From a virus, in IMG/VR virus record IMGVR_UViG_3300045988_140636: 64,000 bases of DNA, one strand, 5' to 3'. This document shows positions 1-45,766 of this stretch, in pieces. Both the position numbers and the translations under genes were made by a program. Below the pieces are notes generated by a model, which ran no database searches, was not told where the DNA came from, and saw nothing but the letters and a program-made list of their open reading frames with translations. The first letter of the stretch is position 1. The number at the start of each line of letters is the position of its first letter.

Positions 1-34
1 ACATTATGGTGAAATTTTTTATTAGGGAGAAAGC

Positions 35-69
35 AAAAAAAAAGGAGGAATATTGTTCCTCCTTTTTTT
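35..69 (-). terminator. intrinsic terminator (A-run, AGGAGGAA/TTCCTCCT hairpin, T-run) downstream of the last minus-strand gene; bidirectional
   Basis: Perfect 8-bp inverted repeat at 43-50/56-63 flanked by A8 and T7 runs, directly after stop of ORF 99..4136. Confidence 0.6.
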
Positions 70-98
70 ATCTACAATATGCTTCATTAGTAGACACT

Positions 99-3000
99 TC
101 ATTGTTTAAAGAATGGAATTCCTGTTTCTGGATGTAATCCCCTGTATATAGTTCTATTCATTGGAATTACAGGAGATTCAAAGAATGACTTATATGCTGT
201 GCTATGTCCTTCATATCTGCCTGATTGTATCTCATCTGTATAGTTCCAAGGATTGAGTAATTTAGTTAAATCCAGTATATTTTCTATTGTATTTACACCA
301 GCAGCAGGAGATTTAACGATCTTTAAGCCTTCTGAAATCATAGATTTTCCAGGTATCATAGCACCTAATTCAGTATATAATCTTCTCGTCTGGTATTCAG
401 TCATTCTGACTAGCCATGGCCTATCCTTATCATCAGACCACTTAATGAGACCTATAATAGCCATTACTGCTAAGAAATGCCCTGTTTCAGTTAAGGCTCT
501 TTTTATATTAGCTTTTTCAGTAGAAGTAAGTTCATTCCACCTAGCGGCAATATTAAATTGAGTCTCTCTTAAATCTCTTGCGAGCTGCAATAGAAATCTA
601 CCACTCGTTCTATAATAACCTTCAGTCCAAGCATCTAAGTCATAGTTATATGAAGCTGATTTGAATCTTCTATTCAAAGATGGTTTTATCCACTTCCTGA
701 ACATCATACCCATTCTACCAATAGCCAATCTCTGTACTGCAGATCTATCAGCTTTATTATAAATACCGTGCATTCTCTGATTAATCGCAGCACTTCTTCG
801 ACTAAATTTAATAATATCATCTTGTGTGAAATCAGAACCATCAGCTTTTTTATAACCCTGCTTTAATTGAAGTTTAGTCCCTAGTTTCTTATTATTTTTA
901 TCAATAGGTACTACCTCCATGGCATCCCATAGACTAACAATCTTACCATTAGGAGCTTTCATCTTATAAGCATCTGCTAATGCTAAAGAAGTTCTATTCT
1001 GCATCCAGTGTTCTCCTGCATTATTCATAAAGAATAATGTAGATGTGCCAAACATTCTGCTGAACCAAGTCTTCCTATCAAAGTTCACTTCTCTGACATC
1101 CTGCTCATATTCCTGCATTACATTGAACAACTCATCCCATAGGGCAAGTTTGCTTGTCTTTACTCTATTGCCTATCTCAGCAAGATATGCAGGAAGAGAT
1201 TGACCATATATCCTATCAGCAGTAATTGTATTCTTCTCATTGAAGAACTCACCAGCAAATGACTCAATTCTCATCATCACTTTACCAGTAGCTATATTGG
1301 AAATACCTGAAAGAACATTGAGTGCTAAGTTGTTCATAGAAGTAACTCTATTTGCAAAGTTAGCAACTTTACCCTTATCAATATTTGTCTTGCCAAATGT
1401 ACCTTCATCTGCCATGTATCTTCCATATACTTGCATTTCAAAGAAGTCATTCAGTCTTTGGACAAATCTTGTAGCTTCTCCTTCTTTGGTTAATTTACTC
1501 TCAACCTTTCTACCTACTGCCTTGAACTTTTCTACAAGTGGCTTACCCCCTTGAGTTTGAATTACTTGCCTTTCTCTTAACAAGTCTCTACCTAATTCAA
1601 GCACATCAATAACCTTGTTCATTTCATCAAAGTCATTAGCCATTGCAGCATAGGCTGTGAGAGTACTTACAATGTCAGTAGACAAGTCATTTGCACTTTC
1701 TCCCTCTTTCAGTTTAGTAAAGTATATAGGAAGAGTCTGTACCTCATTGCCTTCAAAGTCCTTCACTGTAGCTCTGTCTCCAAAGTCCACATCATCAGTT
1801 CTTCTAATAAACTCATCCTTGATACTTTTCCATATCTGCTTTGCCCCTGACCTCACACCATCAGATGACTTAACTCTCTCAAGTAAGTCCTTTCTTATCT
1901 TGACAGCATTAGTAAGTGTAGTGTACTTCTCAGGCAAATAAGAATCCAACTGGGACTTAATGTTCATCACTGTATCATAATACTCTTTCTGAGCTGCATT
2001 TAGTCTTTGGTATTGCTTATTACCATAGATTGACATCTTAGGTACTTTCTTACCATTGACTATTTCCATATTGGCATCAAACCAAGCTTGTCTTTCTTTC
2101 TTATACTTCTCAGCATTTTCACCAACAGGGTTCTTTCCATACTTCTCATTAAGAGATTTGAACATTTCCCTTACTTTCTCCTTGAACAGGGCTTGATTGA
2201 TTTCAGAGATGTAATTACCACTTAAATTACCCTTACTATCCCTCTCAAACATCCAGTCAGTATTCTTAATACCAGCCTTTTCAAGTTTGATAGTAGCAGC
2301 CTGTAATTGTTTCATCACATCAATGGTTCTTGATCTTGCCTGTTCTTTACTCTTCTTGACAGCTTGATCCATTACCTTTAACATATAATCCGAAGAATCT
2401 GCCATACTATCCAGCCATCTATCAAAGAAAGATATATCCTTATCAGCCATCTTCACCAAATCCTCGGCCTTAATTACTTTACCCTTAAATTTGCCAAAAG
2501 GTATCATAATATTTTCCCCTACAAAAGGTTTGATAAAGTCTACAAATAATGGCATAGACACACTATTATATTTAACAAATAAGTCTCCAAGCAAGTTAGA
2601 AGTATCATTTAATAATACTCTCACTCTTTGACCATACCTATTGTCATCATATCTCTCTTCATCCACTAGTGCCTTCCTTATGTCCTCTATAATATTCTTA
2701 TAAGAGTACATATAATTCCTCACATCCCTTAATACAGAAGCTCTCTTATTTACATTAGTTGCCGGAGTATCCCTTAGTAATTCAAGTCTGTAACTTACTT
2801 TTTGTAACTCTTCAAGAGCATTATCAAGAAAAGAGTAAATTCCTTCAATTTCATTGTTATCATATAGCTCCATTTCTAGTCTATCAATAAGGAGCCTTTG
2901 ATTGGTACTAAATTGACTATTAGGATTTCTCTTTTCGTAAATCTTAAGTCTTCTAAGCTCATTATTAATAATATTCTGTAGTACTTTTCTATCTCTTTGA

Positions 3001-4136
3001 ATTCTTTCATTGGTTTGATAGAATAGATCAGATGACTTGATATTATCTATACTTATCTCCTCATCCATTCTACCATTAAGGATATCCCTTGCTAATCTAC
3101 TAAAATCTTTATCTGCTTCATATATAGCTTTTTGTATCTGGTTGACATTTATGGTCTTGAAGAAGGATTTAATAGCTGAGATAACTCTCTCCAATAAGTT
3201 CTTATAGGGTTTCTGTTCTATGGGTTCTGATTTTAACAAATGTTTTGCAAGTAATTTACCTGCTGCTTCCTTGGCTAATTTAGAAGTATCTCCATTATAG
3301 AGTGTATTATATGTATCATATTCATCACCAAGTATTTCATCTACGAGACCATTTGAATTTAGGTTATTGATTAATCTATTAATAATAGGAGACTCTCCCA
3401 TAGCTTCAATAGCAAAGTGAGCAAACTCTTCAGGAAGAGCTTTCTCTCCTTCAATACCATTAGCCAACCTAATCATCTCTACTAATCCATTAGCTGCTGT
3501 TTTTGCTGTATCAAAATCAGTAACCCCATTAATACCCATTCTTTTCTCAAGATTTGTAAGAACTCCTGTTGTAACACCGTTAGCTGCTAGAATATCTCTT
3601 AATCTATTATTGAGATTGGAATTGTATATCATTTTATCAGCTTCAATTGAATTGAGCCTATTTCTCTTTTCAACTTTTACTCCTATGAGTATTCTTGGTG
3701 ATTCAGTATCTTGAATCTTAATGATTCTAGCTACATAATCATCTCTGAAATCTGAGGTTTGATTGAATGAGATTGCTTTCTGTAATAGTGTCTGATAGTT
3801 CTCATCATTATTTATCCAAAGAGCGGGTCTATTCATTCCTCTCTTATAGTATCCAATATCTCTATTCAGCTTTTCAAGTACTTTAGACTCAGGAATAACA
3901 TCACTAAAATTAGTCTTTTTCAGCAAACTATTGATTGTGGGTTCATTGTTTTCATCTAATGTTAGCTTAGAATTCCAATTCTTAATAAATTCACTACTCT
4001 TAGTAATTAAATAAAGTCTGGTAGCTTCTGATCTATTATTCCCAGTGTAGGCAAGCAAGCCCTTGAAGAGCTTGCTGTCTACTATCTGGCCTTTATCATT
4101 TCTCACTTGAGGAATAATTGCACAATTTCTTGACAT
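99..4136 (-). CDS. giant virion-associated protein of the crAss-like RNAP/cargo block (1345 aa)
   Basis: Third of three back-to-back giant minus-strand ORFs (stop/start 4136/4143); position and size typical of the crAss-like virion RNA polymerase/ejected-protein cassette; no short motif I can name. Confidence 0.4.
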   Translation of the reverse strand: MSRNCAIIPQVRNDKGQIVDSKLFKGLLAYTGNNRSEATRLYLITKSSEFIKNWNSKLTLDENNEPTINSLLKKTNFSDVIPESKVLEKLNRDIGYYKRGMNRPALWINNDENYQTLLQKAISFNQTSDFRDDYVARIIKIQDTESPRILIGVKVEKRNRLNSIEADKMIYNSNLNNRLRDILAANGVTTGVLTNLEKRMGINGVTDFDTAKTAANGLVEMIRLANGIEGEKALPEEFAHFAIEAMGESPIINRLINNLNSNGLVDEILGDEYDTYNTLYNGDTSKLAKEAAGKLLAKHLLKSEPIEQKPYKNLLERVISAIKSFFKTINVNQIQKAIYEADKDFSRLARDILNGRMDEEISIDNIKSSDLFYQTNERIQRDRKVLQNIINNELRRLKIYEKRNPNSQFSTNQRLLIDRLEMELYDNNEIEGIYSFLDNALEELQKVSYRLELLRDTPATNVNKRASVLRDVRNYMYSYKNIIEDIRKALVDEERYDDNRYGQRVRVLLNDTSNLLGDLFVKYNSVSMPLFVDFIKPFVGENIMIPFGKFKGKVIKAEDLVKMADKDISFFDRWLDSMADSSDYMLKVMDQAVKKSKEQARSRTIDVMKQLQAATIKLEKAGIKNTDWMFERDSKGNLSGNYISEINQALFKEKVREMFKSLNEKYGKNPVGENAEKYKKERQAWFDANMEIVNGKKVPKMSIYGNKQYQRLNAAQKEYYDTVMNIKSQLDSYLPEKYTTLTNAVKIRKDLLERVKSSDGVRSGAKQIWKSIKDEFIRRTDDVDFGDRATVKDFEGNEVQTLPIYFTKLKEGESANDLSTDIVSTLTAYAAMANDFDEMNKVIDVLELGRDLLRERQVIQTQGGKPLVEKFKAVGRKVESKLTKEGEATRFVQRLNDFFEMQVYGRYMADEGTFGKTNIDKGKVANFANRVTSMNNLALNVLSGISNIATGKVMMRIESFAGEFFNEKNTITADRIYGQSLPAYLAEIGNRVKTSKLALWDELFNVMQEYEQDVREVNFDRKTWFSRMFGTSTLFFMNNAGEHWMQNRTSLALADAYKMKAPNGKIVSLWDAMEVVPIDKNNKKLGTKLQLKQGYKKADGSDFTQDDIIKFSRRSAAINQRMHGIYNKADRSAVQRLAIGRMGMMFRKWIKPSLNRRFKSASYNYDLDAWTEGYYRTSGRFLLQLARDLRETQFNIAARWNELTSTEKANIKRALTETGHFLAVMAIIGLIKWSDDKDRPWLVRMTEYQTRRLYTELGAMIPGKSMISEGLKIVKSPAAGVNTIENILDLTKLLNPWNYTDEIQSGRYEGHSTAYKSFFESPVIPMNRTIYRGLHPETGIPFFKQ

Positions 4137-4142
4137 ATCTTA

Positions 4143-7064
4143 TTAACTTAATAAATTTATTGTACCACAAATACTGTCACCATTTTCATCTCTATAATCT
4201 ACATTAGGCTGAATAGACGTTACATCATTTTCTGAACCTGAGGGAATTTCAAGGGAAGAGCCATATATATCTTCATAAGCCTGTCTTAATGCATCCTCAC
4301 TAAAGGCCTCTCTGTACATTTCAGAATAAGCCAAATCCTCTTCTGTCATTTGAGGAGTTTCATAAGAAGTAACTGCTTCATCAATAACAGCATTAGGATT
4401 ATAACCTTTCTTGTTCTTATCAATTACAGAAGTCATTTCACTTGCTTCCTTACCATACTCATATTCAATAAAGCTATTCTTGAATCCAAGTGGCTCAATC
4501 CTTCTATAGACGGCTACATTAGACTCTTCAACTCTATCTGCAGTTAATCTGTAATAAATATAGTTACCTTTGTTTCTTCTTGCAATGAAATCAAAGAAGT
4601 CATATACAGGACCATCAGGAGTATCTATTCTCTTCTTGATGATTTTTTTATCCCCAAAATTAGCATTTTCATCTATTACAAATGTAACTTCATCCTTAAT
4701 CCCATTATCTTCACCTCTAAATAAAGTTGAAGCATCATCAGGAATTTCAGGAACAAGCTTTCTATTATCAAGATGATTGTAGACATACTGTTCAACAAAG
4801 TCACTATAGTCATCCTCGGATGTAAGGAGACTTCTTAGTGTTTCAATATACTCTGGAACTGCACTTCTTACAGCTACAGGAGCTAAATGAATAAAGGTAT
4901 TAGGACCAAATGCAAAGCCATTTCTGTAGAAGCTGTATCTGAATAAGTTAAGAGCAAGCTTTTGAGCTTCTGGGTTACTCATATATAATAGAGAAGTCCA
5001 GTCTCTCATATATCTTTCTCTTAGAGTGGGACTCAATTGACCAACATTCTTAAACACCACAGTGTCCACAGGATTTGTATCATTTGCCCTTATCACTCTA
5101 AGTCTCTTAATAAACTCAAGGTCAGCTATATCCTCATTCTCTGCAACCACTTTCTTGAAGTAAGTTGGGAAATTATTGATGAAGTCCCTTCTCTTGTCAG
5201 CAGATGTAATCATCTTTGTAGGATTACCATTCTCATCTACTGAACTCCAATCAGGTTCTGCACCAAAGAAATCTGTCTTAGACATTATATAAGCAAGCAA
5301 ATCATTGTAAATACTATTCATAGTCTTCACATTTAATCTACCTGTCTTTGTCATGTTTCTAAGAACATCAACTACCTCATCAAATGACTCAGTGAATTGA
5401 GGGAAATACTTGCTTAACATTCTCTCTGATTGCTTCAATCCAAGTGTGTAGAATGCCTGTAAGAAAGGCAATTTACTTGCAAGCAATTGCTCTCTTATGT
5501 TGTCAATGTCATCATTAAGAGAAATACTGTCACTGATTACATCTGCCCCTACAAGTGGAAACTTGTCATTCTCCTCCATATCTTTCAAGAAGTCTTGAAC
5601 CTTTTGGATTTTGAGCTTTGTATCAGCAATAGTTGGACCTGCTGCACCACCTTGAGTATCAGACCTTGTAGCTTGCACAAGCTGACCAAGGCTATCAGCA
5701 GTTCTCATTATTCTCTTAAATAGGAATCCTACAGCAACTTGTTTCTTATAGAACTCAACCTTACTGTAATCAGAAGTCTGATGGGCACTTGTGATGCCTG
5801 CCATTTCCTTTGCAATAAGGATGTTGTTGGCAAGGTCTTCAATTAGGAAGTCATTATTCTTATAGTTATCATAAGTAACTTCTTCCATCATTGCAGCCTT
5901 CTTCTTATATTCTACAAGGATTTCATCAATCACAGTGTCCTTACCTTTACCTTCTCTACTCTCCCTAAAATAAGTCTGGGTAATATCCATAACAATAGGT
6001 TGTGTCATAAGCAAACCTATCTCAATAGGGTTATAACCTAGTCTTGAAAGAAGCATAGAAGCATCAGCAGTGAATGTATTTTGGTTAATACCAGCCAACA
6101 CAGGATCTTTCACATTATCCACAGATGCAGCCAAGAAACCTGCATTATTCTTTGATATAAACTCTTTGTCTTCATTCATAATGTTATGTAAAGAAATAAG
6201 TCTCTTCCCATTCAATATAAATGAGCCATTCTCTACATCAAGGCCTAATTCAGTATGTTGCATTAAAGCATGATTAGCATTATGATTTGCATATATACCT
6301 ATCAGTTTTGCACCAGTCATATTCTGTTGATGAAGTTGTACTTGAGTTCTTGGAGAAATAGGGTCAAGTCTTTTCTTAGTTTTTTCAGTAAGCCTATCAA
6401 GTTCTTTTAAATCCATTGAAAGTAACTTAGTAATAATCGAGCCATCAGAAATATTTAAGTCTCTTTTTAAATCTGATTCATAGCTCGAACTAAGAATACT
6501 AATAATTCTTGCAGCTTTCTTTTGATAATCAAAACCACCTGGGTTAAGAATCTTAGAGGCTGTATCTGTATTCGTTAGAACTCCCCACATCATATCTATC
6601 ATCAAGTTGTTTCTTGCTTCAAGACTATTTTCTTGTGGAGTTTTATTAAAGTCATACTTTACTTTTCTAATCTTGTATGTATCAAGTCTGTACTTTTCCT
6701 TGTTTTCTTCAAACCATTTCTTAAACTCTACAGGTGCATTTGCAAAGTCCTCTAATAGATTTCCTGCCCTAAATAAGGTAGCTAATTCATCAAGTATTTC
6801 TTGCTCACCTTTAAAGTCCTGTTTTGCTCTTCTGAAGTCAAACTTATCTACCTTGAATTCAGGAAGCATAATATACATCTTATCCACATCAAAGTCAGAA
6901 CCTGACAGAGTGGTAATCTCAGCAGGAAGCATAATTGCAGAACCATTCTGTTGAGGTAAGAATCCTTTGATATACAAAGGAGCCATTGAGTACTTATCTT
7001 CAGTTGGTTGTTTTGTTATCTTACAGATGTTTATTCTGTAATTCTTTATGTTTCCATAAAGCAC
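4143..7064 (-). CDS. virion RNA polymerase-like protein, downstream exon (about 960 aa). The DFDVD motif sits at 6882..6896. The first 15-27 codons of the ORF-track model overlap the intron 3' region, so the true exon start is 6983-7019
   Basis: SGSDFDVDKMY (DxDxD metal-binding-type motif as in crAss-like/phi14:2-type RNAP) about 57 aa from ORF start; the ORF-track start is a GTG lying inside the intron S element. Confidence 0.5.
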   Translation of the reverse strand: MLYGNIKNYRINICKITKQPTEDKYSMAPLYIKGFLPQQNGSAIMLPAEITTLSGSDFDVDKMYIMLPEFKVDKFDFRRAKQDFKGEQEILDELATLFRAGNLLEDFANAPVEFKKWFEENKEKYRLDTYKIRKVKYDFNKTPQENSLEARNNLMIDMMWGVLTNTDTASKILNPGGFDYQKKAARIISILSSSYESDLKRDLNISDGSIITKLLSMDLKELDRLTEKTKKRLDPISPRTQVQLHQQNMTGAKLIGIYANHNANHALMQHTELGLDVENGSFILNGKRLISLHNIMNEDKEFISKNNAGFLAASVDNVKDPVLAGINQNTFTADASMLLSRLGYNPIEIGLLMTQPIVMDITQTYFRESREGKGKDTVIDEILVEYKKKAAMMEEVTYDNYKNNDFLIEDLANNILIAKEMAGITSAHQTSDYSKVEFYKKQVAVGFLFKRIMRTADSLGQLVQATRSDTQGGAAGPTIADTKLKIQKVQDFLKDMEENDKFPLVGADVISDSISLNDDIDNIREQLLASKLPFLQAFYTLGLKQSERMLSKYFPQFTESFDEVVDVLRNMTKTGRLNVKTMNSIYNDLLAYIMSKTDFFGAEPDWSSVDENGNPTKMITSADKRRDFINNFPTYFKKVVAENEDIADLEFIKRLRVIRANDTNPVDTVVFKNVGQLSPTLRERYMRDWTSLLYMSNPEAQKLALNLFRYSFYRNGFAFGPNTFIHLAPVAVRSAVPEYIETLRSLLTSEDDYSDFVEQYVYNHLDNRKLVPEIPDDASTLFRGEDNGIKDEVTFVIDENANFGDKKIIKKRIDTPDGPVYDFFDFIARRNKGNYIYYRLTADRVEESNVAVYRRIEPLGFKNSFIEYEYGKEASEMTSVIDKNKKGYNPNAVIDEAVTSYETPQMTEEDLAYSEMYREAFSEDALRQAYEDIYGSSLEIPSGSENDVTSIQPNVDYRDENGDSICGTINLLS

Positions 7065-7908
7065 GGACTATATCTTCATCCTATAAGGATGTTGGGCACT
7101 CGTGGGTATATTATATTCTATTTTCATAGTTTCAATACCTAGTCTCTGAACCTTTTATAACCATTTAAGTTATAACTTGGCTGCTGATTGTCCCTACTTA
7201 TTGAATTGTCACACACTTGCATATTCCCAGTAATAACCATATCTTTTCTGATGAGTTTTAATACCACTAATTATGTTAGCATCTTTCCTAATATTTCCTA
7301 ATTGTCTGGCAGCTTCTCTAATAGATTGGTAAGTATTTATAATATTACCATCATTATCTATTTGATTAATCTGTCTTTTATTAGGATTAGATTCTCTAAG
7401 TTTTAATCCTATTTTAACTGCTTTATTTCCATAACAGTTATTATAAGACTTAGTACACCATTCAAGATTTTCTACAGAATTATTAGTCTTATTTTCATCT
7501 TTGTGGTTTATACATTCCAAATTGTTAGGATTTGGAATAAAAGTATCAGCTACTATTCTATGTACTGCAATAGTTCTTTTCTTGTTAGTGTCATCGTATA
7601 ATTTCACTATAGGATAGCCACTACTATCAAGTACTGAGGATAAAGGTTTCAAAATGTTACCTTGTCTATAACTAAATACTTTACCACTTTTAGTTACTTT
7701 ATAGCTTGGATATTCTCCAAATCTACTTTTAATATTAAATAGTTCTTCTTCCATATAATGTTTTTGTGTAGATTTATATGTGCAAAGATACTATAAATAT
7801 TTGAATTATGCAAATTTTGTATCAATAATCTAACAGGATGTTCCAGCAATTCACCCAATTTATTATTCTTTAGTATTACTACTAAAGCGAGTCCCAATCT
7901 TTCGATTA
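7020..7908 (-). mobile_element. group I intron (minus strand) inside the RNAP gene, carrying an HNH homing endonuclease; the 3' splice site is approximate (candidates at 7020, 6993, 6984)
   Basis: Minus-strand P (GAATTGCTGGAAC, 7841-7853), Q (CAATCAGCAGCCAA, 7177-7190), R (GGTTCAGAGACT, 7141-7152) and S (AAGATATAGTCC, 7065-7076) elements in canonical order. P2 hairpin with GUAA loop at 7868-7887. P9 hairpin with GAAA tetraloop follows S. Exon ends in U (GTT) and can pair with GACUC (7889-7893) as P1 with a U-G wobble. Confidence 0.7.
7209..7754 (-). CDS. HNH (HNH_3/AP2-type) homing endonuclease with C-terminal NUMOD/IENR-like DNA-binding motif, intron-encoded
   Basis: YKVTKSGKVFS...GYPIVKL...AVHRIVADTF...ECINHKDENKTNNSVENLEW motif pattern; lies between the intron 5' region and the Q/R/S core. 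Confidence 0.75.
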   Translation of the reverse strand: MEEELFNIKSRFGEYPSYKVTKSGKVFSYRQGNILKPLSSVLDSSGYPIVKLYDDTNKKRTIAVHRIVADTFIPNPNNLECINHKDENKTNNSVENLEWCTKSYNNCYGNKAVKIGLKLRESNPNKRQINQIDNDGNIINTYQSIREAARQLGNIRKDANIISGIKTHQKRYGYYWEYASV

Positions 7909-10900
7909 AACTCTATAACCAATCAACTTCCTAAGATCTTTAGGAAGTTTGGTAATATCAAGTTCATGAGTTCCTTCCTTCATAAGGGGTTCATAGAACT
8001 CTCTTGAATAAGCTGGCATGTAACATTCAAGATATTTAATTCTCTTGTTCTCACCTTCCCCTTCAAATACCACATGAAGTTCATCAGTTAAGCCATAATC
8101 AGATACCTGAATCAATGCTCCACCTCTAATCTTCTGTTTGGTGATTTTGCTCTTGATGATACTATTAAGAAGAGTCTGTACTCTTTGAGATTGTACAGGA
8201 TCAAATAATGGAATATTGAACTGACCATTCTCATTAAGGGTACAGGCTCTGACCATATCAATTCCATATCTCTGATTACCTCTAATCTCTTCAAGTAGTG
8301 CCTCCTCTATCTTCTTAGGGTCTTTGAATATATCATTCACATTCTTGAATGCTTGCAAGATATTCTCAGTATTGATTGCATTATACAGGTCCAGCCATTC
8401 CTGCTTGGTCATTTTCTTACCATCAACCTCAATGATAGCATCTGATGCAATATCAGCAGTAATCAACTTTCTAATCTGAGTACCTACAAGCTGCACAGCA
8501 TCAATAGCATGTTCAGGAGTTGCAGTCTGAATACCATAATCTTCATAGCTTATTTTATGTACTACATTAGGATTCTCAATACCATTAGGCATAGTAGTAT
8601 TCTTCAATACCTCCTTTACTTGCCTGAAGTCACTAACCTCGTTAAGGTCAATAACACCTTGCTTCCCGACTTTAGTAGTAGATTCAAATTGAACTACATC
8701 AATATTGTTCTCTTCCATGAATTCATTAATAGCTTTAAGCTTGCTTGATTTACTAAGTGGACCAGCTATTAACTCATGCATGGCAAGTAATAAGAATTCA
8801 GAGTTCTTATGCTGTACAGGAGTCTTAATACCAGTATGACCTTCTACACCACTCATGTTGCTAATTTGGGTATATACATAAGGTTTCTTAGTCTGCCAGA
8901 TGATATTAAAGTCAGCAATGTTCCAAGTACCATTTTTGAAATTATTATATGCCTGCTCCATCTCATCTGTCCATTGGCCAGACATACCAAGTATTGCTCT
9001 ATAGGAGCTTAAACTTCTATAAGCCTGTGCATCTGCAACATTAACTGCCTTAAACTTGTTAATAATATTATCTCTATCCATCTTGGGCATTTCACCTTTC
9101 TTAACTCTCTCATCAAGAACTGTTTCAATATCACTCAGTACTGAAGATACAACCTCATCATCCTTCAAGTAGATAGTTCTTTCCCAATCTCTACCAATTC
9201 TTTCTCCCTTATAAGTAGCTTTGGTATTCATTCTAAGAGCTGGGGCATGAACCTCCTTATATCTCTTCTGAAAGTCCTCTACATTCTTATAGAAAGCTAA
9301 GTCGGTAGTAGTTAACTCAATAATTTGAGAAGTAGCTAATTTACTATTCCAGTAATACTCTCTTAATGCAGCTTTTGTATTATTCTTTACTATAAGGTTT
9401 TTGTTAATACTATCTGCTTCTTGTTTAGTAATATCTCCTCTTATAGACTTCTGATTTATTAAGTCTTTAATTTGTTGGAACAAATCTGTAGCAACTCTAT
9501 CATCTACTGGATTATTGTTGTTATAATCTTTCAATAACAACTCCATATCAGTAGTCCATAAAGTAGTACCAAGGATTTCTTTAGCTTTGATAAGAGACTT
9601 TGCAGTTCTTGAGTTCTGCTGTGATTGACCTGCAAAAGGTAAGTACTTATACTTTCCATTTGGTAACTCATCAAATAAACCAATTCTTGCCCAGTCTCTA
9701 TATGCCTCTTCAAAGCCATTATCCATAACTTCTCTAAGAGTATCTCTAATGAATTCCTTTAACTCAGCACCACTGCCTTCCCTGCTCAATCTACTCAATC
9801 TGTCAAGGAATGTTTCTCCATTATTATATCTAATGGAATTAAGTGCAGGTAAGAACTTAAACTCAGCTCCCCCTATACTCTTAATACTTCCATCCTTCTT
9901 CCTGGAAATATCATAGTTTGCTATAGGGGAGATGTTTGGATTATTATTCTGAAATTCCTCATCTCTTGCTCTGACAAGCATTATTCTGTCATATTCTTGA
10001 TTGACTAAATCAGTTAGTTTATCAAGGATAATATCATCATAAGTCAGCTTGTTCCCATTCTCATCATATTCAACTCCACTTACATATTTTCTGAATCTAA
10101 TGAATTCAGCAGAAGGAGAATCTGAAAGAATAGGGACATGATACCAGGCCCACTTCACACTTGTTCTACTATCTTCTGGGTCTCCCCAATATTCAGTAAG
10201 AAGTGCTAAGGTATAATCTAAGTCATCCCAGTTAGTGTAGTCCACTTTATCAGAGTTCAATACTACTTTATGATTTAGGCCTCTTCTCATTTCCTCAGAG
10301 TTAACCAGTTGCTCTAACCAGTCACTTCTCCATCTCCCATCTTTAAAGAACCACTCATATTGCTTAAACTCAGTATTAATAAATTCTTCAAATCTCTTCC
10401 TATCTCCTCTTACATTCTTAAGCTGTTTAATTAACTTTCCAAGATAATTTGGGGTGACATGAGAGTAATAAGACTTATCATTCTCTCTAACACTACTTTC
10501 AATAGCATCTTCAGTTACATTAGCCATCATATTTGCAATCGCACTATAAGCTGAACCAAATGTATTGATTAAGTCTCCTCTCTTCTCTATTCCATCTTCT
10601 CCTGTTTCTGACTTTATTTCCCCCTTCTTGATTCCTTTGAATATAATATTCAATTGAGGTAGTAGGACCATAATAGGGTCAGTAAACTTAGCTGTATCAG
10701 AAGTTCTAATATCAGTTAGTGCATTTCTTAATATAGAGGGATTGGCATCAATACCAATCATATTCAACAGCTTTAGTATAGTTTTCCAGATCCTATCATC
10801 CTCAAGAAGTTCTAATCTTGCTTCAGTATCCAAATTAGAGAATTTATTGTTTAGAGTTTCGACCCACTTAAGACCTTTTTCAGCATTTTCAATATTTATG

Positions 10901-12258
10901 TCCCCATTCTTCTCATATACACTATCATTATCAAGTTGCATACCATTCTCATAGTTATCTCTCCAAGCATCAAGAAGGTAATATACACCTTCAGGCTTGT
11001 TAATAGCAATGGTTTGCATCTTGAATGTACCATCAAGCATCGTCTTTTTCTTCTGGATCCAATAGGGTACGAAATCCTTTCTGAAATCTTGATAGAATTG
11101 AGAAAATAGCGTATCATCCTCCTCAAGCAATTCTCTTACTTGAGTCACCCAAGGTTTATTCCTTTCGAGCCCCTGTATAAGAGGGATCATATCTTCAGAA
11201 GTAATCATATCTCTCAACTTGTCGATAAGAGTTGCATGAACATAATCAGCATCTAAATACCTTAGATTACCCAAATCATCTTCCTTATACATTCCTTCAT
11301 AGTCAAGCCTGGGTATTTCCCTAATAACTTTTCTAACTGCTTGAGATAAAGATTCATGGGAACTAACTTGTCTAAAGTTAGTCATCCAGCCATCTTTAAA
11401 AGTCTCTTCCTTATTATAATCATCAGCTTGCTCATCAAGCTCACTGTATCCTTCAGGAGTATCATCATTTAAGTTAGCATCTTTAGGAGCACTATAGTTC
11501 AAGTCAATTCTAACTCCTTCTGTCATTACGAGTAATGTGCTAGCTTCTTCTGCCAAAGGTTTAAAGTTATCAACAACTTTTCTATAAGCTTGTTCCTTAT
11601 ATACAGCTTTTCTTCTTGCAGCATCCAATTTTTGTTCATCAGAGAATCTTTCAGATTCATCTATAACACCCTCATCAATTAATGTCTGCTCTCTTGCATT
11701 TATTGCCCCAAGTTCAATTTGTACTCTATTCTCTTCTGTATCGTTGATATAGGATTGAAATATATCCAATACTCTGTCAAATAATCCAGCAGGGGTGTAT
11801 TTCTTTATGGCATCAAATCTATTAAGGGAGCTTAACTCCATCTGTAATTGTAATCTTTCTTCATCAGAAGCTGTATCCATTCTCTTATTAAGAGAATCAT
11901 TCATTTCCTGTAGTGCTTTATCTACCTCATTACTAAAGAATCTAGCAATAAGGCTTACTCTATCTCTTCTAGTTCTTGGGTCAAAGTCTAAATCAACCTT
12001 AGCTTGCTCTTCAATAGAAGAGATCTTAGGAGTGTCAAATGAAGTAGATAATGCTTCATCAAGCATTTCTATTGTATCTGCACTTCTGAGTTTAAATCTG
12101 AAATCATTAAGTTCCTTTGCAGAAGGATACTCTTCAATAGATTTATTATTCTCTTTTTGCCATAAAGCTACAAGGCCCTTTACAGATTCTTCTGTCTCAC
12201 CTTGTAACTTCTCAGTTAAGTGCCTAATCTCTTTAGTTGCTACTAAACAATTATTCAT
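7909..12258 (-). CDS. virion RNA polymerase-like protein, upstream exon (1449 aa); the annotated TAA stop is the first three nt of the intron
   Basis: Giant ORF ending ...LIGYRV then TAA; GAGTT exon end pairs with the intron IGS; contiguous with the DFDVD-containing ORF across the intron. Confidence 0.5.
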
Positions 12259-22880: not shown

Positions 22881-25800
22881 TTAATCACATCTTGAATAAC
22901 CACAATTCATGCAGTGTGTACAACCTCCATCTCTAACTAGGTTTCCACCGCACTCTGGGCACACTTCTCCTTTAATCTCTGAAGATTTAATATACTTGGC
23001 TAATATTCTACACATGGCAGAACTGAAGGAAGTTATATTATCATTTACTTTTTTGGCTGTTTTAGTAATAAATTCAATGCTAACTCCATGTCTTAATAGC
23101 ATTGATGAATATAAAGTAGCGGCTTTCTCCTCTATATTAGTATTAGCCAACTGTAAATCAGATAATTGAATAAACTTACTATCAAAGCTGTAGTGCATTT
23201 TACCTTTCTTGATAATCTTTCCTTTATGGGGAGGAATATCAATAGGTCTTAGAGGTCTGAATGCAAAAATTTCATAAGGTTTCCCTTCTAACAATCCTAC
23301 AAGAACGATAAATTGTTCCCCTTTCACTTTGACTTGATGATAGTCAGCTTCAAGCTCTTTAGGTCTCTTAGGAGCTTGTCTATTACTTATAGTACTAGGC
23401 TTTTCTATCTTATTCAAGACTCCTTCCCTACAACCATCTCTATATATAGTCTGTCCTTTATTTCCTGTTCTCCATGCTTCTATATAAATATCAGCAATCT
23501 CCTCTTCAGTAATCTCTTTTGGAAGATTTATTGTAGAACTAATACTATGAGTGATATATTTCTGTACAATACCTTGCAACTTGATTCTTTGCTTCCAATC
23601 TATCTCTGGTGCTGTAGATCCATAATAAGGACTCTTCTTAAAAGCCTCTTTAAGATATTCCATATCCTGTAACTTCTCCAAATATTCAGGATCATTGAAG
23701 TTCCCTTTGAATGTAGAATAGCATAACCATTTGGCTAAATTAGGATGAACCACTGTGAATAAAGTGTATTTTTCTCCTTTTACATCAGTATAATCTACTT
23801 TATCATTAGGAGACATACATTTTCTCTTTCTTCTATAGAATGGTAAAAAGACAGGCTCTATTCCAGAGGAACATTGAGCCATAATACTCACAGTGCCTGT
23901 GGGTGCAACAGTCGACCAACTTATATTTCTTCGGCCTAAGCATTTCATTTTAATAGCCTCTGTGTGGAAATTATCACTAAGGAATTCATACCATTTGTTC
24001 TTGCCACGATGGGGTATAACAGTATATTCCTTATGTGAATCCCAAGCTGGAAATGCTCCTCTCTCAATAGTCATATCTATTTGAGAGTCCAATTGACCCT
24101 TAAATATAATCCTCATCAGATCTTCAATTTTTTGAATACCTTCATCAGAATCATATTTCAGCCCTAACATAGCTATGGCATCTGCCAATCCAGTAAAACC
24201 AAGACCAGCTCTTCTACCTCTTCTTGTAGTCTCTCTTATTCTACTCCATAGATTAAATTCTACAAAGTCAGATTCACCGTTAGCTATATTTATAATTCTG
24301 TCTATGGCTTCCAATTCAAGATCTACAAGATCATCTGCTAATCTCATAGCTTCGTAGGAATGCTTGTAGAGTAAGTCTTTATCAATATAAGATTCTTCCG
24401 TAAATGGATCTTTTATATAGCTTGTCAGATTAATATGTATCAATCGGCAACTATCAAAGGGACCCATTGGTATTTCTCCACAGTTATGAGCAACCATATT
24501 ATTAGCAATTAAACAATGTGTTCCAGGTACTTGTATATCATATACATCTACTTGTTCACCTTCTTCAATGCTAACTATACAATTATCCCACTGATTTCTA
24601 CACTTAGTAGCTAAGTAATCAGGTAATGGCTCTGTATTTTTCCAAGCTGGGGTTTTTTCACTTGGGACAAACCTCCCATCTTCTCCTCTGACCTGGTGAT
24701 TTTGTGGATTCTGTTCTAATGCTGTAAGTCTAGCATGTTTAGAGTGATCAATAGATTGAAGGTTATTAATTACATTATTAAATGGATTTGCATCTAAGTG
24801 ATGAATATCCTTATCAATCTGCTGACCATATACTCCCTCATAAACAAGTCTATGCTCCATTACATAGTCCCTATTTCCCTCGGTAGTAAGTTTCACTCCG
24901 ACATATCTCCTTCCTCTTCTGCTCCTTAGGATATGAGCAATTCTATCTCCTATCTTAAGATTTTGAGCTTCTATAAATCCCACTCCTTGAACGAACATTT
25001 TATGGTTAGGCGTAACCATTATAGAAGATCCATTTCTTAGGACAATCTTTAATGTTTTAGCATTATCTCTTGTCTTAAAAGCTGCTGTAGAGGGAACTAT
25101 ACAAATATGCCCTTCCTCATTCATGCTATATACATAAGTAGGTTCAGTTATATCAGCAATTCTCTTTCTGCCTTCTACAGTTTCAATGAGAGTATCAGGA
25201 TGAAAGCAAGGATTTGTCCCGATCATCTTAAATTCTTCATAAACACCATCAGGAGCATAATCATGCATAGCATTTTCAAACATTATTCCAGGTTCAGCTG
25301 TATTATATGCACAATGCATTAGAGTATTCCATAACTTTCTTGCTTTAATCTTTTTTAAACAAACTCTTTTTTCAGCAGGAAGGGCTTCCCCAAAGCAGAG
25401 TAATTTATCATATTCCATCTCTTCTAATTGAGAAGGATCATAATTGGCATGTACAGGCCATCTAAGCAAATAATCTTCATCATTGATTACTGCTCTCATG
25501 AACTCATCTGTGACTTTCACACTTATATTGGCTCCAGTTACTTTGGTAAGATCTTGCTTTTTAGTAATGAACTCTTCAATGTCAGGGTGATTTATACTAA
25601 TACTTAACATTAAAGCTCCACGTCTACCATTCTGTGCTACCTCATTGGTGATATCAGAACATACATCCATAAAGCTTGCTGCACCAGTAGATGATTTAGC
25701 TGCATTATTCACTGCAGCTCCTCTTGGTCTTAGATTAGATAAATCATAACCTACTCCTCCTCTCCTTTTCATGAGCTGGACTTGCTGGCTTCTGGTATTC

Positions 25801-26165
25801 ATTATACTAGAGTAACTATCTACTGGAGAACCTATTACAAAACAGTTAGATAAAGAGACCAATTTTCCTGTACCTAATCCGGACATAACAGAACCTCCAG
25901 GGATTATATATTTAAAGTTCTTGAACAGTTCATATATATCCTCCTCTTTTAGCTCTTTCCTTTCATTCCCATAAGGGGATAATACTAACCTGCCTTTTTG
26001 ACTCATAGGAGTATTATTCGCATATTCTCTCTCTATTCTACCAAATTCCTTAGCGAGTCTCCTATGCATATCATCAGGAGTAGTTTCTCCTTCCATAGCG
26101 TACTTGTTTTTCCATGTGGAAGCCGCTAATTCATCTCCATTAAAATAATTCAATAAATCATTCAT
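22881..26165 (-). CDS. ribonucleotide reductase catalytic subunit (monomeric class II-like; C-terminal CxxC...CxxC tail) interrupted by an intein
   Basis: LSNCFV first-Cys region and NP/CGEI active-site loop split by the intein. C-terminal CPECGG...CTHCMNCG. No beta-subunit ORF seen nearby. Confidence 0.7.
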   Translation of the reverse strand: MNDLLNYFNGDELAASTWKNKYAMEGETTPDDMHRRLAKEFGRIEREYANNTPMSQKGRLVLSPYGNERKELKEEDIYELFKNFKYIIPGGSVMSGLGTGKLVSLSNCFVIGSPVDSYSSIMNTRSQQVQLMKRRGGVGYDLSNLRPRGAAVNNAAKSSTGAASFMDVCSDITNEVAQNGRRGALMLSISINHPDIEEFITKKQDLTKVTGANISVKVTDEFMRAVINDEDYLLRWPVHANYDPSQLEEMEYDKLLCFGEALPAEKRVCLKKIKARKLWNTLMHCAYNTAEPGIMFENAMHDYAPDGVYEEFKMIGTNPCFHPDTLIETVEGRKRIADITEPTYVYSMNEEGHICIVPSTAAFKTRDNAKTLKIVLRNGSSIMVTPNHKMFVQGVGFIEAQNLKIGDRIAHILRSRRGRRYVGVKLTTEGNRDYVMEHRLVYEGVYGQQIDKDIHHLDANPFNNVINNLQSIDHSKHARLTALEQNPQNHQVRGEDGRFVPSEKTPAWKNTEPLPDYLATKCRNQWDNCIVSIEEGEQVDVYDIQVPGTHCLIANNMVAHNCGEIPMGPFDSCRLIHINLTSYIKDPFTEESYIDKDLLYKHSYEAMRLADDLVDLELEAIDRIINIANGESDFVEFNLWSRIRETTRRGRRAGLGFTGLADAIAMLGLKYDSDEGIQKIEDLMRIIFKGQLDSQIDMTIERGAFPAWDSHKEYTVIPHRGKNKWYEFLSDNFHTEAIKMKCLGRRNISWSTVAPTGTVSIMAQCSSGIEPVFLPFYRRKRKCMSPNDKVDYTDVKGEKYTLFTVVHPNLAKWLCYSTFKGNFNDPEYLEKLQDMEYLKEAFKKSPYYGSTAPEIDWKQRIKLQGIVQKYITHSISSTINLPKEITEEEIADIYIEAWRTGNKGQTIYRDGCREGVLNKIEKPSTISNRQAPKRPKELEADYHQVKVKGEQFIVLVGLLEGKPYEIFAFRPLRPIDIPPHKGKIIKKGKMHYSFDSKFIQLSDLQLANTNIEEKAATLYSSMLLRHGVSIEFITKTAKKVNDNITSFSSAMCRILAKYIKSSEIKGEVCPECGGNLVRDGGCTHCMNCGYSRCD
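24483..25208 (-). mobile_element. intein (242 aa) with HNH endonuclease domain inserted at the RNR NPC|GE active site
   Basis: Starts CFHPDTLIETVEG (block A, Cys1), ends NMVAHN followed by +1 Cys (CGEI); internal HNH motif HRLV...DIHHLDANPFNNVINNL...H. Confidence 0.75.
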
Positions 26166-45050: not shown

Positions 45051-45613
45051 ATGGAGTTATACAAACAGAAAAGAAAACTAGTAACTGTCACTTGTGATTA
45101 CTGTAGAGAGAGAGTTTCTCTAAACCAGAATCAGAGTATAAAAGAAATATTAAATTAGGCAGACATAACTTTTGTTCAAGGTCTTGTTGCGGTAAATACA
45201 TTGCATCTCTCAACAAGCCTCTTACTCAAGCTCAAATAGGGTCTAGAAACTCTATAAGAAACTATAGTAGTAATAGAAATGATGAGTACACACCATTTAG
45301 AGAAATTCTAAGAACCGTAAGAAACAGGTGTAAAGAATTTAATCTAGATTTACCTTATCTTGTGGAACTTTGGAACTCACAAAATGGTATTTGTCCTTAT
45401 ACAAGACTTAAACTTGTTTTACCTACTTGGAATACTAATCCTGACATAAGATATAGAGCTTCACTTGACAGAATAGATTCTTCTAAAGGATATATTAAAG
45501 GTAACGTGCAATTTGTTGCGACTCCTATCAATTATCTTAAAGGAACTATGTCAGATGAGACTACTAAAGCTTATCTCAGAGAAATTGCTGCTTCTATTTT
45601 CATAGAAGATTAG
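45051..45613 (+). pseudogene. free-standing HNH_3-type homing endonuclease gene disrupted by a frameshift at a (GA)n run
   Basis: Frame 0 MELYKQKRKLVTVTCDYCRE... stops at 45156. Frame 2 (open from 45107) continues ...KRNIKLGRHNFCSRSCCGKY...ASLDRIDSSKGYIKGNVQFV. GAGAGAGAG lies at 45105-45113. The CxxC...FCSRSC zinc-ribbon plus HNH core is a known architecture. Confidence 0.55.
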
Positions 45614-45700
45614 ACTATATCATCACCTCAATAATTTGAGGGTAGGACGCTCAAGCTGGTAATTAAGGAGACTGTACTCCTCCAGTAGTCGTTGCACTTT

Positions 45701-45766
45701 CATTAGGTGTACCTAATGCTTAGCTCAGGATTGGCATGATAAAAGCTAGTTCTAAGCTTTTATTTT
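45701..45766 (+). terminator. tandem hairpins plus T-run downstream of the HNH gene
   Basis: CATTAGGT/ACCTAATG (45701-45718) and GCTTAG...CTAAGC (45718-45757) followed by TTTTATTTT. Confidence 0.45.

What the first reader, a model, noticed from the sequence alone, without database searches (positions are those of the whole stretch)
6983..12258. Giant virion RNAP gene very likely interrupted by a third group I intron (HNH-type HEG) just upstream of its DFDVD metal-binding motif
An approximately 890-nt segment lies between the 1450-aa and 973-aa ORFs. On the minus strand it has the complete P-Q-R-S element series, a P2 GUAA hairpin and a P9 GAAA hairpin homologous to the other two introns. The upstream ORF ends in U (GAG TT|TAA), and this pairs with an intron GACUC as P1 with a U-G wobble. 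The ORF-track start of the downstream ORF is a GTG inside the S element. Splicing would fuse the two into one polypeptide of about 2400 aa. The DFDVD motif (6882-6896) would then lie roughly 20-45 residues after the junction, comparable to single-chain crAss-like RNAPs. In-frame omega-G candidates for the 3' splice site are at 7020, 6993 and 6984. The best by similarity to the other introns' 3' ends is GUACUCAAUG| at 6984
Basis: partly seen in the sequence, partly recalled or inferred. Interest (0 to 1): 0.65.

Follow-up and report, generated by a model that had tools for sequence, protein, structure and literature searches.

The report
Mobile intron splitting crAss-phage RNA polymerase
The giant RNA polymerase gene of this crAss-like gut phage is interrupted by a 901-base self-splicing group I intron that carries its own homing nuclease; the kind is familiar, but every copy found ends in A instead of the almost universal final G.

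Summary
The intron is real. Rfam's group I model passes its curated cut-off at 7044-7287(-). The nearest relative, phage cr128_1, has one uninterrupted 2431-aa RNAP gene, and the window differs from it by an insertion of exactly 7008-7908 (901 nt). Thirty further copies at the same site give a P1-P10 structure with 97.5% of cells paired and 26 compensatory pairs, including an exon/guide-sequence covariation in P1. The ORF at 7209-7754 is an HNH homing endonuclease lying in the P5b loop. Three copies have lost it but keep the ribozyme.

Exon 2 starts at 7007 (CCAACU, PTEDKYS), 37 residues before DFDVD, giving a 2404-aa protein. The last intron base (7008) is A in all 31 copies. The only G in the 13-nt tail (7020) would add four residues, and several copies carry an in-frame TAA there. 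P10 (UUGG/CCAA), a putative P9.0 and homologous tails of G-ending relatives all place the terminal nucleotide at A7008.

Verdict: a new member of the phage intron-plus-HNH kind (compare PhiPA3 gp210), with a rare non-G terminus (precedent in Coxiella). Splicing itself is untested.

The parts
7909..12258 (-). Exon 1 of the RNAP gene (1450 codons, ends ...LIGYRV, last base U7909)
   Evidence: ORF list. blastn against cr128_1 runs colinear up to 7909. Protein alignment.
7008..7908 (-). Group I intron, 901 nt. It starts UAAUCG (an in-frame UAA stop) and ends ...GAUAACAAAACAA.
   Evidence: This is the exact insertion relative to the intron-less cr128_1 and to 80 intron-less IMG/VR alleles. Rfam hit. 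Covariation.
7909..7913 (-). P1 exon strand, GAGUU; U7909 forms the U.G wobble at the 5' splice site
   Evidence: All five pairs hold in all 9 distinct sequences. Exon G-to-A is matched by guide C-to-U in two lineages.
7889..7897 (-). Internal guide sequence UUGG|GACUC. GACUC (7889-7893) pairs with exon 1 (P1); UUGG (7894-7897) pairs with exon 2 (P10).
   Evidence: Intron 2 of the window, a G-ending control, has the same layout.
7868..7887 (-). P2 hairpin with GUAA loop
   Evidence: Five of its eight pairs show compensatory changes.
7843..7858 (-). P3 5' strand (UUGGGU), J3/4, and P4 5' strand (UGCUGG)
   Evidence: They pair with 7092-7097 and 7182-7187. Both helices are invariant and fully paired.
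7783..7814 (-). TTTG-N20-TATCTTTG, a match to the Bacteroides -33/-7 promoter consensus, 28 nt upstream of the endonuclease ATG. The TTTG is also the P5b 5' strand.
   Evidence: Read. The motif is conserved in endonuclease-bearing copies and absent from the ORF-less L006 copy. The consensus is recalled from memory and was not tested.
7209..7754 (-). Homing-endonuclease ORF (181 aa, HNH, I-HmuI-like) in the terminal loop of P5b. Its last codons form the P5b 3' strand.
   Evidence: Pfam HNH_3 4e-8; I-HmuI NUMOD-like 7e-4, below the cut-off. PHROG 59, 9e-36. Intact (180-181 aa) in 20 of the 23 complete non-window copies (21 of 24 counting the window's own).
7044..7287 (-). Rfam Intron_gpI match. 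Only its 3' two thirds (P5' to P9) are real core; its 'P1-P2' part falls inside the endonuclease ORF.
   Evidence: The natural ORF-less copy in L006 scores 77.8 bits.
7140..7146 (-). P7 5' strand (G-A-GACUA), containing the canonical G-C guanosine-binding pair
   Evidence: It pairs with 7065-7070 (UAGUCC). Invariant in all copies.
7065..7070 (-). P7 3' strand (UAGUCC, end of the S element); J7/9 GUG follows at 7062-7064
7044..7061 (-). P9 hairpin with GAAA loop
   Evidence: 7 bp, invariant.
7021..7041 (-). P9.1 hairpin
   Evidence: Three of its six pairs show compensatory changes.
7008..7020 (-). Single-stranded 3' tail GAUAACAAAACAA. C7010-A7009 are the putative P9.0 partners of U7063-G7062. 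A7008 is the terminal (omega) nucleotide.
   Evidence: All 31 copies end CAA|CCAAC. Tails of related introns are homologous and end in G.
7004..7007 (-). P10 exon strand, CCAA: the first four bases of exon 2
   Evidence: Four pairs with UUGG, invariant in all copies.
4143..7007 (-). Exon 2 (954 codons plus stop), starting PTEDKYSMAPLY...
   Evidence: blastn colinear with cr128_1 from 7007. The fused 2404-aa product aligns end to end with the cr128_1 RNAP at 91.9% identity.
6882..6896 (-). DFDVD catalytic metal-binding motif, 37 residues after the exon junction
   Evidence: It aligns with DFDID of phi14:2 gp66 (6VR4).

Best explanation
Window 7008-7908(-) is a mobile group I intron of subgroup IA type (it has P7.1/P7.2), inserted in the gene for the crAss-type single-chain RNA polymerase. 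The insertion lies between Val (GUU) and Pro (CCA) of the conserved GYRV|PTEDKYS strand, 37 residues before the catalytic DFDVD.

Inferred mechanism: the pre-mRNA folds into the ribozyme. Exogenous guanosine, bound at the canonical G-C pair of P7, attacks after U7909, which is held in P1 by a U.G wobble with the guide GACUC. The guide's adjacent UUGG then pairs with CCAA of exon 2 (P10), and J7/9 UG pairs with the CA that precedes the last intron base (P9.0). The exons are joined at A7008|C7007, restoring one 2404-aa ORF. Unspliced RNA stops at once on the intron's first codon, UAA.

The 181-aa HNH (I-HmuI-like) endonuclease is encoded in the P5b loop, possibly under its own Bacteroides-type promoter. 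It presumably nicks or cuts intron-less RNAP alleles in co-infecting phages and so drives homing.

Shown here: the boundaries, the fold with covariation, the endonuclease family, and the spread of the intron among diverged phages. Inferred: catalysis, use of a terminal A instead of G, and endonuclease activity and target.
For: 1. Rfam RF00028 scores 54.4 bits at 7044-7287 and 77.8 bits on the natural ORF-less copy in L006.
2. cr128_1 has one 2431-aa CDS, and the window's insertion relative to it is exactly 7008-7908. The fused product aligns end to end at 91.9% identity.
3. All 80 best intron-less IMG/VR alleles read GYRVPTEDKYS without an indel. 6VR4 aligns without a gap across the junction.
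4. Thirty further copies sit at the same site. The proposed P1-P10 structure has 97.5% of cells paired, against 36-45% when the partners are slid. It has 26 pairs with changes on both sides, including exon GAGUU/guide GACUC versus exon GAAUU/guide GAUUC. RNAalifold recovers the same helices independently.
5. Terminal A: all copies end CAA|CCAAC. The only other candidate, G7020, is excluded because the 12-nt stretch after it reads AUAACAUAACAA, with an in-frame TAA, in L010, L013, L014, L107 and L110.
6. Related G-ending introns have homologous tails: GGUAACAAAUUG| (window intron 2), GAUAACAAAAUG| and GAUAACAAAAUUG| (Clostridium phages), AUUAACAAAACAG| (a 23S intron).
7. Intron 2, whose junction is also fixed by cr128_1, has the same P1/P10 guide layout.
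8. The endonuclease is lost or degraded in L006, L110 and L113, yet the ribozyme and tail are kept.
9. The intron is often more similar between phages than the flanking exons are (for example L115: 91% against 68% and 75%).
Against: There is no RNA evidence of splicing. A terminal A fits poorly with the canonical G-binding pair in P7, which is unchanged from G-ending relatives, so the second step could be slow or could need a helper. P10 and the core helices never vary, so they carry no covariation signal of their own. P9.0 rests on a comparison between intron families, not on variation within the family, and one related class (..CAUG|) does not fit it well. No co-conversion gradient was detectable.
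Confidence: 0.8

Rival explanations
1. The intron is canonical and ends at G7020. Exon 2 then begins AUAACAAAACAA-CCAACU, and the mature RNAP carries four extra residues (ITKQ) between RV and PTEDKYS.
For: G7020 is the only G in the 3' tail. It is in frame, it is conserved in all copies, and in the window the 12 nt after it contain no stop.
Against: In L010, L013, L014, L107 and L110 the same 12 nt read ATA ACA TAA CAA, an in-frame stop. The variable bases give K/I/N/L/Q/stop, which is not a coding pattern. None of the 80 intron-less alleles, nor 6VR4, has an insertion at this point of the conserved strand. AUAA has no P10 partner, whereas CCAA pairs perfectly with the guide. Homologous tails of related introns run to their last base before the exon.
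Confidence: 0.05
2. The ribozyme is dead or not used. The polymerase is made as two polypeptides (1450 aa plus about 950 aa) that assemble, as in phages with split RNAP subunits.
For: The missing terminal G could be read as decay. Split beta/beta' subunits exist in other phages (general knowledge). The bajarodcaudo virus 1 homologue is annotated as separate ORFs.
Against: There is no conserved start codon. Copies with the in-frame tail TAA offer only the Met inside KYSM, and L006 has KYSAAPL with no ATG. Compensatory changes in 26 pairs, together with the exon-guide covariation in P1, indicate continuing selection on splice-site recognition. Copies that lost the endonuclease keep an intact ribozyme. 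The break would fall inside a conserved strand (GYRV|PTEDKYS) of the double-psi beta-barrel region that carries DFDVD.
Confidence: 0.06
3. One reading: the 3' splice site lies at G6984 (or G6993), so exon 2 starts APLY... (or YSMAPLY...).
For: Both Gs are in frame.
Against: The bases 7007-6985 encode PTEDKYSM. That stretch is present in every intron-less homologue, and it differs between intron-bearing copies only at synonymous sites (CCAACAGAGGACAAATAT against CCAACTGAAGATAAGTAC). blastn colinearity with cr128_1 starts at 7007.
Confidence: 0.01
4. The intron does splice at 7909/7007, but the step at the terminal A is inefficient on its own. It would then depend on a protein helper or on a slow, possibly regulatory, second step.
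For: The G-binding site is canonical while the terminal nucleotide is A. A has never reverted to G in 31 copies, although the neighbouring tail bases vary.
Against: Nothing here addresses kinetics or cofactors. No maturase-like domain was found in the endonuclease. One Coxiella intron lacking the terminal G is reported as self-splicing (title cited; details from memory).
Confidence: 0.3

Closest known systems
PhiPA3 gp210 intron in the virion RNAP beta-subunit gene (Birkholz et al., Science 2024; PMC11620839)
   Same: A group I intron inserted at a highly conserved catalytic-region site of a phage-encoded, virion-associated RNA polymerase gene. It encodes an HNH nicking homing endonuclease that targets intron-less alleles of related phages.
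   Different: The host is a jumbo Pseudomonas phage with a multisubunit RNAP (beta subunit, after two conserved Asp). Here the host is a single-chain crAss/phi14:2-type RNAP, and the insertion is in the beta'-like half before DFDVD. Nothing is known here about endonuclease activity or competition. The terminal A is specific to the present intron.
SPO1/SP82/Bastille DNA-polymerase introns with I-HmuI, I-HmuII and I-BasI (references listed)
   Same: Phage subgroup IA-type ribozyme plus an I-HmuI-like HNH endonuclease with an N-terminal HNH and a NUMOD-like C-terminal part. The intron is precisely inserted in an essential, conserved gene.
   Different: The host gene differs (DNA polymerase), as does the placement of the ORF in the ribozyme; here it is in the P5b loop. 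Protein identity to GenBank phage endonucleases is at most about 41%.
Coxiella burnetii 23S rRNA intron lacking the canonical terminal G (Raghavan et al., J Bacteriol 2007; title in the reference list of PMC3428280; details from memory: Cbu.L1917 ends in A and self-splices in vitro)
   Same: A natural group I intron whose 3'-terminal nucleotide is not G.
   Different: It is an rRNA intron in a bacterium, of a different subgroup, and a single element. Here the intron is in a protein-coding phage gene, and 31 copies in diverged phages all keep the A.
Group I introns of crAss-like phages (Yutin et al. 2021, PMC7886860; review PMC10136315)
   Same: Crassvirales genomes carry group I introns and inteins in core genes. 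The transcription block of some groups is fragmented, and a LAGLIDADG intron endonuclease is drawn in that block.
   Different: Those papers stress the Delta and Zeta groups and identify introns by protein domains. This phage is a Steigviridae (beta-group) relative of cr128_1. No GenBank phage record carries this intron. The ribozyme structure, exact boundaries and terminal A have not been described, to my knowledge.
Window intron 2 (29018-29947) and Clostridium perfringens phage introns (phiCP13O, CPQ4)
   Same: These are the closest ribozyme relatives found, about 70-75% identical over P7-P9.1. They share the tail motif (G/A)UAACAAA, and intron 2 has the same P1/P10 guide layout.
   Different: They end in UG or UUG (a terminal G), have J7/9 GAA instead of GUG, sit in other genes, and carry a LAGLIDADG endonuclease or none.

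Membership tests
Group I intron (Rfam RF00028) | Conserved catalytic core (P3-P9 with the P, Q, R and S elements) scoring above the curated covariance-model cut-off | tested here: met
   54.4 bits against a cut-off of 50, E 4.8e-11. The ORF-less copy in L006 scores 77.8 bits.
Group I intron (Rfam RF00028) | 5' splice site after a U that forms a U.G wobble in P1 with an internal guide sequence | tested here: met
   GAGUU/GACUC, with U7909.G in 9 of 9 distinct sequences. Pair 3 changes G-C to A-U (two lineages) or G.U (one).
Group I intron (Rfam RF00028) | P3/P7 pseudoknot with a G-C guanosine-binding pair in P7 | tested here: met
   P3 is 98% paired and P7 100% paired, both invariant; the bulged-A G-A-GACUA/UAGUCC arrangement is present. 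Because these helices are invariant, they give no covariation evidence.
Group I intron (Rfam RF00028) | 3'-terminal guanosine (omega G) at the 3' splice site | tested here: not met
   The last inserted base is A7008 in the window and in all 30 other copies. No shift of the boundaries gives a G (sequence logic).
Group I intron (Rfam RF00028) | P10 pairing between the guide sequence and the start of the 3' exon | tested here: met
   UUGG/CCAA, 4 bp, directly adjacent to the P1 part of the guide, in all copies. Intron 2 serves as a control with the same layout.
Group I intron (Rfam RF00028) | Guanosine-dependent self-splicing that yields ligated exons | not testable with these tools
   This needs RT-PCR or RNA-seq, or an in-vitro splicing assay.
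Subgroup IA (IA2-like) phage introns | Extra helices P7.1/P7.2 between P7 and P3' | tested here: met
   P7.1 (5 bp, 3 compensatory pairs) and P7.2 with a GAAA loop. No formal subgroup classifier was run.
HNH homing endonuclease, I-HmuI-like | HNH catalytic domain | tested here: met
   Pfam HNH_3 at 33.2 bits (cut-off 24.8). PHROG 59, 9e-36.
HNH homing endonuclease, I-HmuI-like | C-terminal NUMOD/I-HmuI-type DNA-binding module | tested here: inconclusive
   I-HmuI_NUMOD-like scores 19.6 bits and NUMOD1 17.1 bits, both below their cut-offs.
HNH homing endonuclease, I-HmuI-like | Site-specific nicking or cleavage of the intron-less allele | not testable with these tools
   One hint only: the near-identical intron-less allele L025 differs by three synonymous changes clustered at -1, +3 and +6 of the insertion site.
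crAss/phi14:2 gp66-type single-chain RNAP | Sequence homology to the solved gp66 structure across the second double-psi beta-barrel, with the DxDxD motif | tested here: met
   6VR4, E 7.4e-21; GYRV|PTEDKYS...DFDVDKMY aligns with GYRIPNQGQSS...DFDIDKMY without a gap at the junction.
crAss/phi14:2 gp66-type single-chain RNAP | Packaged in the virion and injected to transcribe early genes | not testable with these tools
   Inferred from homology only.

The most novel reading that the evidence does not exclude
This is a successful, horizontally spreading lineage of group I introns that has replaced the near-universal 3'-terminal guanosine by adenosine while keeping a canonical G-binding pocket. 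It would still restore an essential gene, with the 3' site defined by P9.0 and P10. If so, a deliberately slow second step might be tolerated because only a few RNAP molecules are needed per virion. A further hint is that 23S rRNA L1931 introns with the same P7-P9 sequence also appear to end in A.
Probability: 0.55. Interest if true: 0.65.

Novelty: new variant of a known kind. Interest (0 to 1): 0.5.

Why it matters
For annotation, the two "giant ORFs" are one 2404-aa RNA polymerase, and the true exon junction is now fixed to the base. About 30 public crAss-like contigs share this split. For phage ecology, an HNH endonuclease intron in the RNAP gene of very abundant gut phages parallels the PhiPA3/PhiKZ case, where such an element mediates competition between co-infecting phages. 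The near-isogenic intron-less allele with three clustered synonymous changes at the target site hints at the same arms race. For RNA biology, the invariant terminal A gives a natural, easily testable system: a 320-nt ORF-less copy exists, and it could show how a group I ribozyme performs exon ligation without its terminal G.

Tried and rejected
1. The 3' splice sites at 6984 and 6993 were rejected by intron-less alleles and by the synonymous-only variation in PTEDKYSM.

2. G7020 as the terminal nucleotide was rejected by the in-frame TAA in five copies, the absence of P10 and the absence of any insertion in homologues.

3. I checked by hand whether sliding both boundaries by 1-7 nt gives a terminal G while keeping the frame. 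None does.

4. The split-subunit reading was rejected for lack of a start codon and because of the covariation.

5. I looked for a co-conversion gradient in the flanking exons. Intron-bearing and intron-less alleles show the same profile, so nothing can be concluded.

6. I searched GenBank phages for the same intron and found none. The hits were exon matches only, plus core similarity of about 70% to Clostridium, Flavobacterium and Staphylococcus phage introns.

7. I tried to read the Coxiella papers on the intron lacking the terminal G (PMC2045182, PMC3187410, PMC2926257) and the AR9 paper. None is held, so only the title and memory support that comparison.

8. The 23S rRNA L1931 introns that seem to end in A (L112, L124, L125, L128) were not used as proof. 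They gave no Rfam intron hit at the cut-off, and an L1931 intron in Simkania is reported to stay unspliced (reference listed).

9. The 5' third of the Rfam alignment ("P1-P2" at 7287-7230) was discarded as spurious. The real P1-P5 5' strands lie at 7913-7807, upstream of the endonuclease ORF.

Full report
**What is there.** On the minus strand, a 1450-aa ORF (7906-12258) and a 973-aa ORF (4143-7064) flank a 181-aa ORF at 7209-7754. Rfam's group I intron model RF00028 passes its curated cut-off at 7044-7287(-), with 54.4 bits against a cut-off of 50 and E 4.8e-11. There are two further hits at 29054-29300 and 45591-45860. The 181-aa ORF is an HNH endonuclease (Pfam HNH_3, 4e-8; PHROG 59, 9e-36). 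Its I-HmuI/NUMOD-like C-terminal match is below the cut-off.

**Identity of the host gene.** A fused junction peptide finds 69 GenBank phage records, nearly all crAss-like, annotated "putative RNA polymerase". The closest is uncultured phage cr128_1 (Steigviridae, Mahlunavirus), which carries one uninterrupted 2431-aa CDS. The junction region matches the solved phi14:2 gp66 RNAP (6VR4) at E 7e-21. GYRV-PTEDKYS...DFDVDKMY aligns with GYRI-PNQGQSS...DFDIDKMY without a gap. The label "virion RNAP" is an inference from that homology.

**Exact boundaries.**
- blastn of the window against the whole cr128_1 genome aligns 1-7007 with 51908-44902 and 7909-9045 with 44901-43765. The inserted DNA is therefore exactly 7008-7908, 901 nt.
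- cr128_1 reads ...LIGYRV|PTEDKYSMAPLY...DFDVD.
- All 80 best intron-less IMG/VR relatives read GYRVPTEDKYS without an indel.
- Joining 7909 to 7007 gives a 2404-aa ORF that aligns end to end with cr128_1 at 91.9% identity.
- The junction lies 37 residues before DFDVD (6882-6896).
- Because U is not A and U is not C at the two edges, the boundaries cannot be slid.

**The ribozyme.** Exact-pattern scans found 30 further copies at the same site in IMG/VR and metagenome contigs. I excised the endonuclease insert and aligned 9 distinct cores (A1). I then wrote a structure comprising P1, P2, P3, P4, P5, P5a, P5b, P6, P6a, P7, P7.1, P7.2, P8, P9, P9.1 and P10, with P3/P7 as a pseudoknot.
- 97.5% of cells are paired, against 36-45% when the partners are slid by 1-3 columns.
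- 26 pairs have changes on both sides, in P1, P2, P5a, P5b, P6a, P7.1, P7.2, P8 and P9.1.
- The catalytic helices P3, P4, P5, P7 and P9 are invariant.
- RNAalifold recovers the same helices on its own.
- In P1, exon GAGUU pairs with guide GACUC. In L006 and L018/L019 the exon is GAAUU and the guide is GAUUC, a compensatory change between exon and intron that only matters for recognising the 5' splice site.
- The endonuclease ORF lies in the loop of P5b (UUUGCAUA/UAUGCAAG).
- The natural ORF-less copy in L006 is 318 nt and scores 77.8 bits in Rfam. The 5' third of the Rfam alignment in the window is therefore an artefact of the ORF insertion.

**The 3' end.**
- The intron ends ...P9.1-GAUAACAAAACAA|CCAACU. 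The last base, 7008, is A in the window and in all 30 other copies, while tail positions 7-9 vary among A, U and C.
That stretch is present in every intron-less allele and differs between intron-bearing copies only at synonymous sites.
- The candidate G7020 would add four residues. In L010, L013, L014, L107 and L110 those 12 nt read ATA ACA TAA CAA, which contains an in-frame stop.
- Three independent features place the terminal nucleotide at A7008. First, the guide's UUGG, immediately 5' of GACUC, pairs with CCAA at 7007-7004 (P10). Intron 2 of the window ends in G at a junction also fixed by cr128_1, and it has the same layout: guide AAGG|GUUCU, exon 1 AGGAU, exon 2 CCUU. Second, the tail is homologous to the tails of G-ending relatives, namely GGUAACAAAUUG|, GAUAACAAAAUG|, GAUAACAAAAUUG| and AUUAACAAAACAG|. 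Third, J7/9 is GUG where the tail ends CA-A or CA-G, and GAA where it ends UU-G. That is what a 2-bp P9.0 predicts. This third point is an inference between families, and one related class (CAUG|) fits it poorly.
- The G-binding pair in P7 is canonical. The intron therefore appears to lack the terminal G that mechanism reviews treat as standard.
- The only precedent I know of is one of the Coxiella 23S introns (title cited; details from memory).

**Mobility.**
- The endonuclease ORF is intact (180-181 aa) in 20 of the 23 complete non-window copies (21 of 24 counting the window's own). It is absent in L006 and reduced to remnants of about 60 codons in L110 and L113, and all three keep the ribozyme and the tail.
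- Intron identity often exceeds the identity of the flanking exons (L115: 91% against 68% and 75%; L122: 93% against 74% and 74%). This fits horizontal spread.
- L025 is an almost identical phage without the intron. Within 240 nt around the site it differs from the window at four positions, and three of them are synonymous changes at -1, +3 and +6 (GTC CCG ACG against GTT|CCA ACT). These changes remove the splice-site U and the P10 match, and probably the endonuclease site. They could be a short conversion tract or a resistant allele.
- No general co-conversion gradient was seen.

**Comparison with what is known.**
- Group I introns and inteins in Crassvirales are described mainly for the Delta and Zeta groups, and a LAGLIDADG intron endonuclease is drawn in a transcription block (PMC7886860; PMC10136315).
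- cr128_1 itself has a split capsid gene and a CDS annotated as a group I intron endonuclease.
- The closest functional precedent is PhiPA3 gp210, an HNH nicking endonuclease in a group I intron in a virion RNAP subunit gene. It attacks the PhiKZ allele (PMC11620839).
- No GenBank phage record holds this particular intron.
- The element is therefore a new member of a known kind. Its one unusual trait, the invariant terminal A, makes it a variant worth a bench test.

**Limits.** Splicing, endonuclease activity and the promoter-like motif are all inferred. The Coxiella comparison rests on a title and on memory. The rRNA introns that seem to end in A are a lead, not evidence.

Noticed in passing
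window 24483-25205 (-): A 723-nt in-frame insertion in the B12-dependent ribonucleotide reductase gene (ORF 22881-26165), absent from cr128_1. Pfam finds Intein_splicing (5.5e-17) plus HNH_3 (2e-6), so this is an intein with an HNH endonuclease.
   Followed up: partly
window 29018-29947 (-): Intron 2 is a 930-nt insertion in the uracil-DNA glycosylase gene (cr128_1 position 23640/23641). Its ORF at 29159-29884 is a LAGLIDADG_2 endonuclease (2.7e-33). The ORF lies between the 5' splice site and the guide sequence and runs into the ribozyme core. The intron ends UAACAAAUUG|.
   Followed up: partly
window 45591-45860 (-): An ORF-less group I intron (85.8 bits), also present in cr128_1 (a 97.8% identical block). 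There the only annotated CDS is on the opposite strand, so the interrupted gene is unclear.
   Followed up: no
window 7783-7814 (-): TTTG-N20-TATCTTTG, 28 nt upstream of the endonuclease ATG, matches the Bacteroides -33/-7 promoter consensus (recalled from memory). It is conserved in endonuclease-bearing copies, mutated in the degraded copy L113 (TATCTCTG) and absent from ORF-less L006.
   Followed up: partly
L006 2675-2951 (-): The same diverged phage that carries the ORF-less copy has a second group I intron (83.8 bits) about 120 nt downstream, inserted right after GAC UUC GAU (DFD|) of the catalytic DxDxD motif. The exon between the two introns is therefore about 120 nt long.
   Followed up: partly
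L002 6576-7471 (bajarodcaudo virus 1, PQ006092): This RNAP homologue is intact at the window's site. It is broken about 40 nt further on, just after DFDVDKMY, by an insert of about 900 nt carrying an annotated endonuclease. No Rfam intron hit reaches the cut-off there.
   Followed up: partly
L025 (IMGVR_UViG_3300045988_099131), junction near position 1756: A near-identical intron-less allele whose only clustered differences from the window are three synonymous changes at -1, +3 and +6 of the insertion site (GTC CCG ACG). This could be an endonuclease-resistant target or the edge of a conversion tract.
   Followed up: partly
L106, L109, L119; L112, L124, L128; L125 (metagenome 23S rRNA genes): 23S rRNA introns at position L1931 share the exact P7-J7/9-P9 sequence of the RNAP intron. 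L106, L109 and L119 end ..AACAAAACAG|AGCGAA. L125 (..AAAUCAA|AGCGAAAUUCC) and L112/L124/L128 (..AUUCCAA|AGCGAAAUUCC) appear to end in A as well. Only L106 gave an Rfam intron hit.
   Followed up: partly
L009 25757-28913 (cr128_1 73757-76913): The major capsid protein gene of cr128_1 is annotated in three pieces with intervening hypothetical ORFs, and a 'group I intron endonuclease' CDS lies nearby. Introns therefore already occur in this phage genus.
   Followed up: no
L120 near 4450: One copy of the RNAP intron begins CAAUCG instead of UAAUCG, so the immediate in-frame stop at the start of the intron is not universal.
   Followed up: no
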